IMG/VR virus record: IMGVR_UViG_2541047726_000006
Coordinates: 1-18,343 of that record
Reading direction: 5' to 3' (one strand)
Source: a virus
Taxonomy: Duplodnaviria; Heunggongvirae; Uroviricota; Caudoviricetes
DNA length: 18,343 nucleotides
A program made the position numbers and the translations under genes. The notes under the pieces are model-generated. The model was not told the DNA's origin and searched no databases. It worked only from the letters and a program-made list of their open reading frames with translations. Below, piece by piece: positions 4,502 to 14,954 of this stretch (positions are counted from its first letter, which is position 1; the number at the start of each line of letters is the position of its first letter).

Positions 4502-4559
4502 AAAAAGGGCGGCAGAGCAGTCACGGAGTAAAACTGATACCGCCAAACGTCACCAGAAA
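4502..4559 (-). ncRNA. dicF: DicF small RNA (ftsZ-targeting sRNA)
   Basis: The reverse complement of 4502-4559 reads TTTCTGGTGACGTTTGGCGGTATCAGTTTTACTCCGTGACTGCTCTGCCGCCCTTTTT, which matches the DicF sequence I recall, including the terminal GC stem and U-run. Ends are approximate because DicF is processed from the operon transcript. Confidence 0.85.
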
Positions 4560-9805: not shown

Positions 9806-10552
9806 ATGAAAAACATTGCGGCAGTTGGGGTTCTTGAACGTATTCGCAGACTTGCACCACAGGGGGCGGTTCCACCGTACCGGACGGTGGAGGAGTGGCG
9901 GGAATGGCAACTTGCTGAAGGACGAAAACGCAGCGAGGAGATTAACCGCCAGAATCGCCAGTTGCGGGTGGAAAAAATCCTGAATCGTTCGGGCATCCAG
10001 CCTCTGCACAGCAAATGCTCGTTTGCAAATTATCAGGTGCAGAACGACGGGCAAAAATACGCGCTGAGCCAGGCCAAATCCATAGCTGACGAACTGATGA
10101 CCGGGTGCACGAATTTTGTGTTCAGCGGTAAAACCGGCACCGGGAAAAATCACCTTGCAGCGGCGATGGGCAACCGGCTGATGGTGAAGGGGCGCAGCGT
10201 GATTATCGTCACCGTGTCTGACGTCATGAGCGTGTTGCATGACAGCTACGACAACGGCAAATCCGGGGAAAAATTTTTACAGGAGCTTTGCGGGGTTGAT
10301 TTGCTGGTCCTGGATGAAATAGGCGTTCAGCGGGAGACGAAAAACGAGCAGGTGGTATTGCACCAGATAATTGATCGCCGGACAGCATCACTGTGCAGTG
10401 TCGGGATGTTAACAAACCTGAATCATGCCGCAATGAGTACGCTTCTTGGTGAGAGGATTATGGACCGCATGACCATGAACGGTGGTCGATGGGTGACGTT
10501 TAACTGGGATAGCTGGCGTCCAAATGTCAGCAATATGAGGGTTGTGAAGTAA
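9806..10552 (+). CDS. DnaC-like helicase loader (IstB-type AAA+ ATPase)
   Basis: 248-aa ORF with an AGGGGG Shine-Dalgarno. Walker A FSGKTGTGKNHLAAA and Walker B LLVLDEIG. Sits in the YdaV/DnaC position after the O-like gene. Confidence 0.9.
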   Translation: MKNIAAVGVLERIRRLAPQGAVPPYRTVEEWREWQLAEGRKRSEEINRQNRQLRVEKILNRSGIQPLHSKCSFANYQVQNDGQKYALSQAKSIADELMTGCTNFVFSGKTGTGKNHLAAAMGNRLMVKGRSVIIVTVSDVMSVLHDSYDNGKSGEKFLQELCGVDLLVLDEIGVQRETKNEQVVLHQIIDRRTASLCSVGMLTNLNHAAMSTLLGERIMDRMTMNGGRWVTFNWDSWRPNVSNMRVVK

Positions 10553-13113: not shown

Positions 13114-13282
13114 TTTTGGTTCAACTAAATACAACGTCAGTTTTGAAGCATGGCATGAACTGTTAATGGACTATGCAGAGTTACGTGGTGGCAGTGCTGC
13201 TGATGCTGAAGCATGGCGTGATGATTATGAAGCAGGAAAAACTCCGGTCGAAGCATATTGTGATGAGTGGGGCGATGAATGA
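13106..13282 (+). CDS. Small acidic protein (58 aa), absent from the ORF track because it is under 60 aa
   Basis: ATG at 13106 preceded by GAGGAAG. Product MADFGSTKYNVSFEAWHELLMDYAELRGGSAADAEAWRDDYEAGKTPVEAYCDEWGDE. Start overlaps the previous stop and stop overlaps the next start (ATGA). Confidence 0.45.
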   Translation: MADFGSTKYNVSFEAWHELLMDYAELRGGSAADAEAWRDDYEAGKTPVEAYCDEWGDE

Positions 13283-13794
13283 GCGAGATTAATTATCAGG
13301 AAGGGCATGAAACGGCAGGGCAGGCAAAACCAGTTGCATGGCGATATCGCTACGTGAAAAAAGACGTTACAGACTTTCAGGGGAAGCCGTGGGCTGGTGA
13401 CTGGAAATATGTACCGACAAAAGAGGATTGTAACGACAGGCCGAACTATGAAATTCAGGCCTTATTCATCGGCCCGCCAGTCCCGGTGACATCAGAAGGA
13501 CTGGTTAAAGCCGTGCGCTTTTATGAACAGGTAAAGCGTGAGAATCCGCCAGTCGAAACAGGAGCATGGAAGGATGCTGTTGACTGGGTGCTCAGAGAGG
13601 CCTGCTGCGCTGCCATTCTGGGTAAAGCCGACAATCCACCAGCATCCGGCAATCAGGTTAGCGAATTAACAATGTGGGTTAAACGACTGGTCAGTCAACT
13701 GAAAAAAGCTCAGCCGGACTGTAAATTACCGGAGAAGGCGATGGATTACCTGAAACGAAATGGACTGATAAGCGTGGAGGATGTTTTACGATGA
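13279..13794 (+). CDS. Hypothetical protein
   Basis: 171-aa ORF translationally coupled to the two acidic ORFs. No family recognised. Confidence 0.6.
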   Translation: MSEINYQEGHETAGQAKPVAWRYRYVKKDVTDFQGKPWAGDWKYVPTKEDCNDRPNYEIQALFIGPPVPVTSEGLVKAVRFYEQVKRENPPVETGAWKDAVDWVLREACCAAILGKADNPPASGNQVSELTMWVKRLVSQLKKAQPDCKLPEKAMDYLKRNGLISVEDVLR

Positions 13795-13838
13795 ATATTT
13801 AGACTAAAGAGTTTGTAACGCTATGTAAGTGATTTTTT

Positions 13839-13870
13839 CTGGTTTAGATATTTATATGTCCGGCCAAATT
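13839..13870 (+). repeat. Imperfect direct repeat, copy 1 (GGTTTAG-ATATTTA-TGTCCGG-CAAA)
   Basis: CTGGTTTAGATATTTATATGTCCGGCCAAATT resembles TTGGTTTAGTTGGATATTTACTGTGCCGGACAAAAA at 14110-14145. The two copies bracket the small membrane-protein ORF. Confidence 0.45.
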
Positions 13871-13914
13871 GAGGTGTGTTTAAATGTTATTGCACATTGA
13901 TTGTAGGGGGAATA

Positions 13915-14094
13915 ATGAAAAACGCATTGCAGTTTTTGTTTGTTGCGTTCTGGTTGTTCGCATCATGTATGCCCATCATCTTCACAGCAAGGTATATGGA
14001 AAAAATTGATGTTTTGATATTAATGTTTGGACATATAAATGCCCTTTTTTTAGGGGTGTTCATGGCGGTCATGTGCATTGAATACTGGCGGTAA
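13915..14094 (+). CDS. Small hydrophobic protein (59 aa, two predicted transmembrane segments)
   Basis: ATG at 13915 with an AGGGGG Shine-Dalgarno. Product MKNALQFLFVAFWLFASCMPIIFTARYMEKIDVLILMFGHINALFLGVFMAVMCIEYWR. Lies in a very AT-rich segment. Confidence 0.45.
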   Translation: MKNALQFLFVAFWLFASCMPIIFTARYMEKIDVLILMFGHINALFLGVFMAVMCIEYWR

Positions 14095-14109
14095 ATACAG
14101 CGAACGCCA

Positions 14110-14145
14110 TTGGTTTAGTTGGATATTTACTGTGCCGGACAAAAA
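14110..14145 (+). repeat. Imperfect direct repeat, copy 2
   Basis: See copy 1 at 13839-13870. This copy sits just upstream of the putative hok promoter (TTGCGG-N16-TAGAAT, about 14150-14177). Confidence 0.45.
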
Positions 14146-14237
14146 CGGTTTGCGGGGAAATCTTAGTTAAGTAGAATAACTGCGGGTGCTTGAGGCTATC
14201 TGTCTCAGGCATGAACACCAAAAGGCAGATAGAGAAA

Positions 14238-14302
14238 AGCCCCAGTTAACATTACGCGTCCTGCAAGACGCTTAACATTAATCTGAGGCCATATCTATGC
14301 GA
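14238..14302 (-). ncRNA. sok: Putative Sok-like antisense RNA, position inferred only
   Basis: By analogy with plasmid R1 hok/sok, the antisense RNA should cover the mok leader and start region. A candidate minus-strand -35 TTGACC is the complement of 14334-14339. Ends are not determined. Confidence 0.25.
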
Positions 14303-14356
14303 CACATAGAGATTAGCCTCTTACGGACCGAAAGGTCAAGGAGAAGCAGGCTATGA
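14297..14356 (+). CDS. mok: Short mok-like leader ORF (19 codons) ending in overlap with the hok start
   Basis: ATG at 14297 preceded by GAGG; encodes MRHIEISLLRTERSRRSRL and stops at TGA 14354-14356, overlapping the hok ATG at 14353 (ATGA). Confidence 0.3.
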   Translation: MRHIEISLLRTERSRRSRL

Positions 14357-14508
14357 AGCAGCAAAAGGCGATGTTAATCGCCCTGATCGTCATCTGTTTA
14401 ACCGTCATAGTGACGGCACTGGTAACGAGGAAAGACCTCTGCGAGGTACGAATCCGAACCGGCCAGACGGAGGTCGCTGTCTTCACAGCTTACGAACCTG
14501 AGGAGTAA
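14353..14508 (+). CDS. hok: Hok-family type I toxin (51 aa), absent from the ORF track because it is under 60 aa
   Basis: MKQQKAMLIALIVICLTVIVTALVTRKDLCEVRIRTGQTEVAVFTAYEPEE matches the Hok/HokD (RelF) family as I recall it. The upstream leader has complementary CUAUCUG/CAGAUAG elements. Confidence 0.9.
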   Translation: MKQQKAMLIALIVICLTVIVTALVTRKDLCEVRIRTGQTEVAVFTAYEPEE

Positions 14509-14578
14509 GAGACCCGGCGAGGGAGAAATCCCTCGCCACCTCTGATGTGGCAGGCATTCTCAACGCACCCGCACTTAA

Positions 14579-14603
14579 CCCGCTTCGGCGGGTTTTGTTT
14601 TTT
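14579..14603 (+). terminator. Rho-independent terminator of the hok transcript
   Basis: CCCGC-TTCG-GCGGG stem-loop followed by TTTTGTTTTTT. An additional perfect 8-bp stem GGCGAGGG/CCCTCGCC lies at 14516-14537. Confidence 0.7.
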
Positions 14604-14675
14604 CCTGGCATTCTGGTTTACAATTCGCACGCCAGCCTGAACAACTGGCACCTGCTGCGCCAGCAGAGACAACCG

Positions 14676-14954
14676 ATGGCGCACGATACCAAATTACACA
14701 ATTCTGATAATTCAGCCGTCTTTGCCAGCAGGCGCGGACGGTGTTTTCACGCATTCAAATCTGACTGGTTCCAGCATCCCCCATGCACTGAAGAACAGGC
14801 CGAGTGGCTAATTCAGTGCTACCGCAGACACGGATACGAGATTAAGAAAGCCCTCAGCCTCGATTATCGTCACTGGATAATCTCCGTCAGGCTTCCTTAC
14901 TCCGAACGACCACCGCGTCCGTCCCGCACATTCCAGCAACGCATCTGGAGGTAA
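14676..14954 (+). CDS. Hypothetical protein (92 aa) between hok and the DUF968 gene
   Basis: ATG at 14676 inside a longer GTG-initiated track ORF. Same position as rem in the Qin prophage. No family recognised with confidence. Confidence 0.5.
   Translation: MAHDTKLHNSDNSAVFASRRGRCFHAFKSDWFQHPPCTEEQAEWLIQCYRRHGYEIKKALSLDYRHWIISVRLPYSERPPRPSRTFQQRIWR

What the first reader, a model, noticed from the sequence alone, without database searches (positions are those of the whole stretch)
13795..14150. AT-rich islet encoding a 59-aa two-helix membrane protein, bracketed by about 30-bp imperfect direct repeats next to hok
Between the last early gene and the hok locus lies a low-GC segment with one well-initiated small ORF (AGGGGG Shine-Dalgarno) encoding a very hydrophobic 59-aa protein. 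Two similar 30-36-bp sequences flank it at 13839-13870 and 14110-14145. In the Qin prophage this position is occupied by relBE, as I recall, so this reads as a swapped-in moron. Small hydrophobic proteins beside type I toxins are often toxins, superinfection-exclusion factors or membrane-active defence effectors. I do not recognise this one.
Basis: partly seen in the sequence, partly recalled or inferred. Interest (0 to 1): 0.55.

Follow-up and report, generated by a model that had tools for sequence, protein, structure and literature searches.

The report
Unannotated prophage membrane-hairpin gene beside hok
The 59-codon reading frame is a real, conserved gene for a tiny two-helix membrane protein of unknown function, carried beside the hok toxin locus in prophages of about a quarter of E. 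coli genomes; it is missed by standard annotation but is otherwise an ordinary piece of phage cargo.

Summary
There is an AT-rich stretch (GC 0.33-0.39) with a 59-aa, very hydrophobic ORF (13915-14094) behind an AGGGGG Shine-Dalgarno, 89 nt upstream of the hok mRNA start. The ORF is truly coding. A sister clade (44% identity, the same 59 residues, no indels) survives in a decayed prophage remnant of 1045 of 5426 E. coli genomes. Between the clades pN is 0.34 against pS 0.70, and only this frame stays open.

The family has no Pfam, PHROG, NCBIfam, PADLOC or PDB relative. It is confined to E. coli/Shigella and was unannotated in every RefSeq record I inspected. AlphaFold predicts a helical hairpin.

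- Full-length Qin-type prophages carry the same islet. There relBE belongs to a 3.3-kb insertion that split hok.
- The two repeats are real (p about 0.006), but they lie inside the cassette and are absent from the sister clade.
- I found no promoter, terminator or antisense-RNA signal of its own, so it is neither a classic moron nor a type I toxin locus.

Most likely it is accessory cargo read from the early operon. The same slot holds other tiny hydrophobic ORFs and defence genes in related prophages. Function is unknown and interest is modest.

The parts
13795..14140 (.). AT-rich variable cassette ('islet') between the stop of the last early gene and the left end of the hok module
   Evidence: GC profile. 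In prophages lacking the ORF, homology to the window stops at the upstream gene's stop (CGATGA, 13789-13794) and resumes at about 14137-14141 (AAAAACGGTTTGCGG).
13905..13910 (+). Shine-Dalgarno AGGGGG, 4 nt before the ATG; the Qin-type allele reads AGGAGG (13908 G>A)
   Evidence: Sequence; haplotype table.
13915..14094 (+). 59-aa ORF MKNALQFLFVAFWLFASCMPIIFTARYMEKIDVLILMFGHINALFLGVFMAVMCIEYWR, a predicted helical-hairpin inner-membrane protein
   Evidence: Sister clade at 44% identity. pN 0.34 against pS 0.70, dN/dS about 0.23. It is the only frame open in both clades. AF2 helices 2-24 and 30-58.
13840..13868 (+). Imperfect direct repeat R1 (TGGTTTAGATATTTATATGTCCGGCCAAA), inside the 5' untranslated part of the cassette
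   Evidence: p = 0.006; not found in the clade-2 locus.
14111..14143 (+). Imperfect direct repeat R2 (TGGTTTAGTTGGATATTTACTGTGCCGGACAAA). Its 3' end overlaps the conserved left edge of the hok module, and it is the 3' arm of a hairpin that spans the ORF stop codon.
13850..13861 (+). 5' arm of a perfect 12-nt inverted repeat (ATTTATATGTCC); it pairs with 14029-14040 in the predicted mRNA fold
   Evidence: I3; MFE helix, z = -2.06. Four SNPs in or beside it keep or add pairing. Not conserved in clade 2.
14029..14040 (+). 3' arm of the 12-nt inverted repeat (GGACATATAAAT), inside the ORF (codons 39-42)
14088..14133 (+). Predicted hairpin over the ORF stop codon and R2 (-19.5 kcal/mol for 14076-14150, z = -2.07); no U tract follows, so it is not terminator-like
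   Evidence: terminator scan negative.
14150..14177 (+). Inferred hok promoter TTGCGG-16 nt-TAGAAT (8 of 12 matches)
   Evidence: Relaxed scan; position relative to the Rfam hok/sok model start at 14184. Inference, not shown.
14184..14355 (+). hok mRNA leader with the sok antisense region
   Evidence: Rfam RF01794, 106.7 bits, E = 9e-24.
14353..14508 (+). hok (HokD-type) toxin CDS, 51 aa
   Evidence: PF01848, E = 1.2e-23; RefSeq annotates the identical sequence as hokD.
13279..13794 (+). Last early gene upstream (171 aa, phrog_660, function unknown). Its 3' end is shared with prophages that carry other cassettes.

Best explanation
The ORF at 13915-14094 is a genuine gene for a 59-residue inner-membrane helical hairpin. 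It belongs to an orphan family with two clades, confined to E. coli/Shigella. It is carried as accessory cargo at the distal end of the early-right operon of Qin-like lambdoid prophages, always directly upstream of a hok/sok locus or its remains.

Shown: it is under protein-level purifying selection; length and reading frame are conserved between clades; a good ribosome-binding site is kept; two helices are predicted; and the slot it occupies is a variable cargo site.

Inferred: because it has no detectable promoter or terminator of its own, it is transcribed by read-through from the upstream early genes during lytic development. It inserts N-in/C-in: basic residues at the N terminus (MK / MRK), a neutral to acidic 5-8-residue loop, and ExWR at the C terminus. 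It acts in the membrane through specific helix packing or partner binding, as suggested by the invariant S17-C18-x-P20, G39-x-x-N42 and E56-x-W58-R59. That would make it a small modulator or exclusion-type factor, not a self-contained toxin-antitoxin locus. The biochemical function itself is not known.
For: Coding. A sister clade (P0068/P0073) is 44% identical over all 59 residues with no gap. Between the clades there are 73 of 177 nucleotide differences, pN 0.34, pS 0.70 and dN/dS about 0.23. Identity by codon position is 34, 41 and 29 of 59. Random substitution at that level keeps the frame open in 3% of trials, and the antisense frame is broken in clade 2. Shuffles give an ORF this long and this hydrophobic 0.18% of the time. 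The SD is AGGGGG or AGGAGG in all non-degraded haplotypes.

Maintenance. The exact window protein and the Qin-type allele are each recorded on at least 1000 contigs (the counting cap), against 1 to 11 contigs for each truncated form I read.

Structure. AF2 predicts helices 2-24 and 30-58, pLDDT 73.

Cargo slot. Related prophages hold other content at the same place: a 27-aa ORF, a 29-34-aa ORF, AbiH, a KwaB-like protein, KilA-N, or LysR plus a cyclase.

No autonomous expression signals.

Synteny with hok in both clades.
Against: Within clade 1, all 8 SNP sites seen in the ORF among 80 viral contigs are nonsynonymous. This is not significant (0.81^8 = 0.19), but it gives no support for current constraint. 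PGAP does not call the gene. Frameshift alleles exist at a T7 run. Absence of a promoter rests on consensus scans that also missed the hok promoter at the default threshold. Expression has not been observed: no ribosome profiling, proteomics or transcript map was available, and a full-text search for the peptide found no paper. The functional part of the statement (modulator or exclusion factor) is inference from context only.
Confidence: 0.6

Rival explanations
1. The small hydrophobic ORFs in this slot, including this one, are functionally tied to hok. Either translation of the upstream ORF on read-through transcripts remodels the hok leader and so controls Hok synthesis during induction, or the peptide acts with or against Hok in the membrane. 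Prophage hok loci would then be three-part modules.
For: Both clades of the 59-aa family lie directly upstream of hok or a hok remnant. At least two other, unrelated families of tiny hydrophobic ORFs end 39-40 nt before the hok mRNA start in other prophages, and both look coding. A hairpin links the ORF stop codon to R2 just upstream of the hok promoter.
Against: Several prophages with an identical HokD have no small hydrophobic ORF there, or have unrelated large genes (AbiH, KwaB-like, KilA-N). To my knowledge, plasmid and other chromosomal hok loci work without such a partner. Distances from the ORF stop to hok differ (-87 against -39/-40). Shared synteny inherited from one ancestral phage layout explains the linkage equally well.
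Confidence: 0.15
2. It is a second type I toxin: a membrane-depolarising peptide kept silent by mRNA structure and an antisense RNA, as at hok/sok.
For: It is a small, very hydrophobic protein. The predicted mRNA has a long-range helix (13849-13865 with 14027-14043) enclosing the start region, with z = -2.06. It sits beside a bona fide type I locus.
Against: There is no promoter-like or terminator-like site on the minus strand, and no Rfam hit other than hok/sok. The minus-strand fold is unremarkable (z = -0.68). The long-range helix and the repeats are not conserved in clade 2. Clade 2 stays intact in a remnant where any antitoxin context has decayed. Two transmembrane helices are atypical for type I toxins, which usually have one (my knowledge).
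Confidence: 0.1
3. It is a lysis-timing factor (holin-, antiholin- or pinholin-like two-helix protein) expressed early.
For: It has two transmembrane helices and a size near class II holins. It is carried by inducible phages.
Against: It lies about 7 kb upstream of the lysis cassette, which has its own class II holin, endolysin and spanin. There is no charged C-terminal tail, no dual-start motif and no Pfam or PHROG holin match.
Confidence: 0.05
4. It is a chance ORF in a non-coding, T-rich spacer or regulatory region upstream of hok.
For: ORF length alone is unremarkable for this composition (P = 0.19). T-rich strands yield hydrophobic codons. There are no synonymous SNPs within clade 1. PGAP ignores it.
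Against: Frame, length and 26 residues are conserved across 41% nucleotide divergence, with pS twice pN. The probability of staying open by chance is 0.03, and no indels occur although the aligned flanks need several. Hydrophobicity plus length has P = 0.0018. Three-base periodicity is present in the ORF (chi-square p = 0.016) but not in the flanks.
Confidence: 0.05

Closest known systems
Hok/Gef type I toxins (PF01848), such as the adjacent HokD
   Same: Small, hydrophobic, inner-membrane targeted and prophage-borne; physically adjacent to hok.
   Different: No sequence similarity (no PF01848 hit). Two predicted helices instead of one transmembrane helix plus a periplasmic tail. No mok-like coupling ORF, no antisense RNA signal and no fold-back 3' element detected.
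Morons of lambdoid phages in the sense of Hendrix and colleagues, for example the HK97 gp15 superinfection-exclusion membrane protein (cited in PMC11364771, ref. 15)
   Same: An extra gene of deviant base composition, present in some relatives and absent from others, encoding a membrane protein.
   Different: No promoter or terminator of its own detected. No sequence relationship to any described moron product. Exclusion activity is untested.
Class II holins and pinholins (for example phage 21 S21)
   Same: About 60-70 residues, two transmembrane helices, phage-encoded.
   Different: Not in the lysis cassette, no charged C-terminal domain, and no family match.
Small regulatory inner-membrane proteins of E. 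coli and its cryptic prophages (for example DicB and YdfD of Qin, reviewed in PMC12648545 and PMC6832061)
   Same: Very short proteins from a Qin-type prophage, likely to act through host membrane partners.
   Different: No homology. To my knowledge DicB is not an integral membrane protein. No partner or phenotype is known here.

Membership tests
Type I toxin-antitoxin locus | Small hydrophobic toxin ORF (usually under 60 aa) | tested here: met
   59 aa, GRAVY 1.20.
Type I toxin-antitoxin locus | Cognate antisense or divergent small RNA gene with its own promoter and terminator | tested here: not met
   No promoter-like or terminator-like site on the minus strand of 13300-14700. No Rfam hit except hok/sok. 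Minus-strand fold z = -0.68. These are consensus scans only, so a weak promoter cannot be excluded.
Type I toxin-antitoxin locus | Growth arrest or membrane damage on overexpression | not testable with these tools
   Needs an experiment.
Hok/Gef family (PF01848) | Match to the family profile | tested here: not met
   No Pfam hit at E <= 0.1 for the 59-aa protein; the neighbouring hok scores 82.9 bits.
Moron (Hendrix definition) | Present between genes that are adjacent in related phages | tested here: met
   O157:H7 and other prophages have only 74 nt (with a different 27-aa ORF) between the same upstream gene end and the hok module.
Moron (Hendrix definition) | Base composition different from neighbouring genes | tested here: met
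   GC 0.33-0.39 against 0.50-0.59.
Moron (Hendrix definition) | Own promoter and terminator, allowing expression from the repressed prophage | tested here: not met
   None at default thresholds. A relaxed scan gives only 8-of-12 matches, none well placed: one ends inside the ATG, and the others lie within or at the end of the upstream gene. No terminator between 13300 and 14576.
Class II holin / pinholin | Two transmembrane domains | tested here: met
Class II holin / pinholin | Located in the lysis cassette next to the endolysin; charged C-terminal tail; family profile match | tested here: not met
   The lysis genes lie about 7 kb downstream in the near-identical prophage L001, with their own holin. 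The C terminus is IEYWR. No Pfam or PHROG match.
Known anti-phage defence proteins (PADLOC-DB) | Match to a defence-system profile | tested here: not met
   No hit for either clade.

The most novel reading that the evidence does not exclude
Prophage hok loci are not two-part (hok/sok) but three-part modules. A tiny membrane peptide encoded just upstream (this 59-aa hairpin, or the unrelated 27-aa and 29-34-aa peptides in other prophages) would control or cooperate with Hok. This could happen through translation-dependent remodelling of read-through hok transcripts, or through a peptide-peptide interaction in the membrane. Either would link phage induction to Hok-mediated killing or release.
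Probability: 0.1. Interest if true: 0.7.

Novelty: new member of a known kind. Interest (0 to 1): 0.35.

Why it matters
This is a real protein-coding gene present in about 29% (clade 1) and 19% (clade 2) of complete E. coli genomes. It is absent from RefSeq annotation in every record I inspected and belongs to no described family. It therefore adds a concrete, testable entry to the catalogue of overlooked small membrane proteins. It also marks the hok-proximal end of the early operon of lambdoid prophages as a cargo slot where tiny hydrophobic ORFs and defence genes alternate. It corrects the picture of Qin: hokD in K-12 is the 3' half of a hok locus that was split by the relBE-bearing insertion. 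If the peptide turns out to interact with hok or with incoming phages, it would matter for prophage biology. As it stands, it is an uncharacterised accessory gene.

Tried and rejected
- Family searches for the 59-aa protein against Pfam, PHROGs, NCBIfam and PADLOC, and a PDB sequence search with the two-clade family profile (A4), found nothing.
- A profile search with both clades against 5.8 billion proteins found no third clade.
- The GTDB genome scan gave only two Shigella copies and one frameshifted E. coli copy (L008). L008 is uninformative because the whole region carries indels.
- Population SNPs within clade 1 were too few to test selection: 8 sites, all nonsynonymous, not significant.
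- The ORF-length test by shuffling was not significant on its own.
- My first strict Shine-Dalgarno scoring rule missed AGGGGG, so I dropped it from the joint statistic.
- Literature searches for the peptide string, for hok-adjacent small ORFs and for a lambdoid hotspot at this site gave no relevant description.
- I considered that the repeats mark an insertion with target duplication. I rejected this because the cassette borders do not coincide with them and clade 2 lacks the pair.
- I considered that the antisense ORF called in two phage records is the real gene. I rejected this because it is full of stops in clade 2.
- I considered a conserved RNA structure. I rejected it as a family feature because the 12-nt inverted repeat is not conserved in clade 2.

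Full report
**What is in the sequence**

The window is the left and early-right part of a lambdoid, Qin-like E. coli prophage. An essentially identical stretch in strain AR_0013 is annotated from integrase through dicB, cI/cro-like repressors, replication genes, hokD, DUF968, RusA and Q to the lysis and terminase genes. Between the stop of the last early gene (171 aa, phrog_660; 13279-13794) and the hok locus, GC drops to 0.33-0.39.

AGGGGG lies at 13905-13910. The protein has GRAVY 1.20 and two hydrophobic stretches around a charged loop. The hok leader/sok element is detected at 14184-14355 by Rfam (106.7 bits) and hok at 14353-14508 by Pfam.

**Is the ORF a gene?**

Composition alone does not settle it. 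An ATG ORF of at least 59 codons appears in 19% of dinucleotide shuffles of 13795-14183. One that is also this hydrophobic appears in only 0.18%. The ORF shows three-base periodicity (T at 53% of second positions; chi-square p = 0.016), which the flanks lack.

Within E. coli the islet is nearly invariant. It occurs in 1570 of 5426 complete genomes, all at least 95% identical. Population data are therefore weak. Among 80 viral contigs there are 8 variable sites in the ORF, all nonsynonymous, where 19% synonymous would be expected by chance (P = 0.19).

The decisive evidence came from an exhaustive HMMER search of 1.84 billion representatives. It found a second clade, P0068/P0073, also 59 residues and 44% identical, aligning without a gap. 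Twenty columns are invariant across all eight aligned sequences, including S17-C18-x-P20-I-I-x-T24, F38-G39, N42-A-L44, and I55-E56-x-W58-R59. Residue 40 is H or Y.

- At the DNA level the two ORFs differ at 73 of 177 positions.
- pN is 0.34 and pS is 0.70, giving dN/dS of about 0.23.
- Identity by codon position is 34, 41 and 29 of 59, the pattern expected of coding sequence.
- Random substitution at that level leaves the frame open in only 3% of simulations.
- No indel occurs inside the ORF, while the aligned flanks need several.
- The antisense frame is open in the window (63 aa) and annotated in two phage records as 'hornerin' or hypothetical, but it is full of stops in clade 2.

I conclude that the plus-strand 59-codon frame is a real gene.

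**Database status**

Neither clade matches Pfam, PHROGs, NCBIfam or PADLOC, and the two-clade profile has no PDB match. A profile of both clades found no third clade among 5.8 billion proteins.

The exact protein exists in GenBank and UniRef under names such as 'membrane protein' and 'putative membrane protein [E. coli ATCC 25922]', and is recorded on at least 1000 contigs, the counting cap. PGAP left the region unannotated in all 40 RefSeq records sampled and in AR_0013. A full-text search for the peptide found no paper.

AlphaFold2 with the shallow family alignment predicts helices 2-24 and 30-58 at mean pLDDT 73. Charge distribution (MK/MRK at the N terminus, a neutral to acidic loop, ExWR at the C terminus) suggests N-in/C-in. 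This is inference.

The idea that relBE occupies this position in Qin is not borne out.

- In a less-decayed Qin prophage (isolate F829) and in the complete phage PhiR42_1, the same islet is present and is followed by the hok promoter and leader up to the hok start codon.
- There an ISNCY transposase remnant begins. It is followed by ydfW, flxA, ydfV, relB and relE, and only then by hokD.
- The 15-nt string GGAGAAGCAGGCTAT is found on both sides of this insertion of about 3.3 kb.
- K-12 MG1655 lacks the islet because its Qin has lost everything between dicC/ydfX and that insertion.

The slot is nevertheless variable. In O157:H7 and other prophages, the same upstream-gene 3' end (…GTTTTACGATGA) is followed by only 74 nt before homology to the hok module resumes at about 14137-14141. 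In others the slot holds AbiH fragments, a KwaB-like protein, KilA-N, or a LysR regulator with a cyclase. The 'swapped cargo' idea is right in spirit.

However, consensus scans find no sigma-70 promoter and no intrinsic terminator belonging to the ORF on either strand. A relaxed scan does recover the hok promoter TTGCGG-16-TAGAAT but offers nothing credible for the ORF. I therefore infer read-through transcription from the early operon. The strict moron definition is not met.

**The repeats**

A gapped local alignment of the two untranslated parts of the cassette pairs 13840-13868 with 14111-14143. It has 26 of 34 identical columns and scores 25, against 15.4 +/- 2.4 in shuffles (p = 0.006). 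The similarity is thus more than chance, though modest and chosen after the fact.

The repeats do not delimit the cassette. R1 lies 45 nt inside it, and only the last bases of R2 (GGACAAA…) overlap sequence conserved in ORF-less hok loci.

In the clade-2 locus the downstream copy is weakly recognisable (p about 0.05), but there is no R1/R2 pair (p = 0.73).

R1 also contains one arm of a perfect 12-nt inverted repeat whose partner lies inside the ORF (13850-13861 and 14029-14040). This forms a long-range helix in the predicted mRNA fold (z = -2.06). Four SNPs in or next to the helix keep or add pairing through G-U or A-U. R2 forms a hairpin with the stop-codon region. None of this is conserved in clade 2, so I treat these as clade-specific features of uncertain meaning.

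**The sister clade and linkage to hok**

Clade 2 lies in 1045 of 5426 genomes, at one place each. The site is between ttcA and uspF, which I recognise as the Rac attachment region (my knowledge). It sits inside an AT-rich remnant flanked by an integrase fragment and a DUF1627 fragment.

Downstream of its stop comes an R2-like stretch, and then directly the 3' half of a degenerate hok coding sequence: …ACGAAAAAAGACCTCCACCAGGTACGAATC…, to compare with hok codons TRKDLCEVRI. The ORF-hok order therefore predates the split of the two clades. Clade 2 stays intact while its neighbours are fragments. It is absent from sequenced phages and present on only one viral contig.

**A recurring pattern**

In 80 IMG/VR contigs chosen only for encoding an identical HokD, there are 41 different versions of the sequence just upstream of the hok promoter. 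Many end in a tiny hydrophobic ORF:

- the 59-aa family, with its stop at -87 from the hok mRNA start;
- a 27-aa family (M[TNS]WPEAF…VYSICRWG, stop at -39), whose start overlaps the upstream gene's stop as ATGA;
- a 29-34-aa family (…AIYCLAVVLMDRLSD, stop at -40), sometimes in tandem with the 27-aa family;
- a few singletons.

The two short families show 24 synonymous against 22 nonsynonymous and 15 against 22 distinct variant codons. That is well above the roughly 20-25% synonymous expected by chance, so they also look coding. Several contigs have no such ORF.

The pattern could reflect a functional tie to hok, or simply that the end of the early operon tolerates small insertions. My data cannot tell these apart. 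I rate the tie as a minority possibility.

**Verdict**

The feature is real, and the ORF is a genuine, conserved, RefSeq-unannotated small membrane protein gene of an orphan family. It is best read as accessory cargo of lambdoid prophages, co-transcribed with the early genes and in old synteny with hok. I found no evidence that it is a toxin-antitoxin locus, a holin or a known defence gene. The function remains open and needs experiments. It is a new member of a familiar kind (small phage-borne membrane proteins), of modest interest. The recurring small-ORF/hok arrangement is the part most worth following up.

Noticed in passing
L090:2423-2506, L091:2423-2506, L093:1247-1327; many of L097-L176: An unannotated 27-aa hydrophobic ORF family (MTWPEAFTTVGIAMAVALVVYSICRWG and variants). 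Its ATG overlaps the stop of the last early gene (ATGA) and its stop lies 39 nt before the hok mRNA start. There are 24 synonymous against 22 nonsynonymous distinct variant codons, so it looks coding.
   Followed up: partly
L092:2390-2479, L093:1363-1467, L095:1388-1477; many of L097-L176: A second tiny hydrophobic ORF family (29-34 aa, …AIYCLAVVLMDRLSD / …VYCLVVFLMDRLGN) ending 40 nt before the hok mRNA start, sometimes in tandem with the 27-aa family. Only the 34-aa form is annotated (WP_001278454.1, hypothetical).
   Followed up: partly
L092, L094, L095, L096 (the slot equivalent to window 13795-14140): The same slot upstream of hok carries quite different cargo in other prophages: LysR regulator plus polyketide cyclase, KilA-N protein, AbiH fragments with IS1, and a Kiwa KwaB-like protein. 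This suggests a cargo or defence hotspot at the hok-proximal end of the early operon.
   Followed up: partly
L004:6001-6556 and 9831-10000; L002: In full-length Qin-type prophages the hok locus is split. Promoter, leader and sok stay beside the islet and end at the hok ATG. An ISNCY remnant, ydfW, flxA, ydfV and relBE follow, and hokD resumes after relE. The 15-nt GGAGAAGCAGGCTAT is duplicated at both junctions. This would explain why, as I recall from the literature, K-12 hokD lacks its own regulatory elements.
   Followed up: yes
window 14297-14356: In this window the mok-like frame is only 19 codons and ends in TGA overlapping the hok ATG (ATGA). Most other haplotypes lack T14336, and in the one copy I translated (L008) mok then runs 68 codons across hok, as in plasmid R1. 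These are two different coupling geometries for the same Hok protein.
   Followed up: no
window 13887-14078 (-); L002:2907-3158, L003:2907-3164: The antisense ORF over the gene is what two deposited phage genomes annotate (one as 'hornerin'). It is interrupted by many stops in the sister clade, so it is a mis-annotation.
   Followed up: yes
window 14045-14051: There is a T7 run inside the ORF (codons 44-46). Several database alleles (P0020, P0023, P0025) are frameshifted exactly here, ending …FFRGVHGGHVH. This is either sequencing error or slippage-prone variation.
   Followed up: no
L178:8113-9700 (NZ_CP011915.1, between ttcA and uspF): A decayed prophage remnant in the ttcA-uspF interval (the Rac attachment region) is present in 1045 of 5426 E. 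coli genomes. It keeps the clade-2 59-aa ORF intact, while the integrase, DUF1627 and hok are reduced to fragments.
   Followed up: partly
window 4507-4558 (-): DicF small RNA (Rfam RF00039, 76.7 bits), as expected for a Qin-like prophage.
   Followed up: no
window 13279-13794 against 13795-14600: Across viral contigs the upstream 171-aa gene is only 88-92% identical and carries indels, while the islet plus hok is 97-100% identical. The islet-hok block therefore appears to move between prophages as one recombination unit, with its left junction near 13623-13795.
   Followed up: partly
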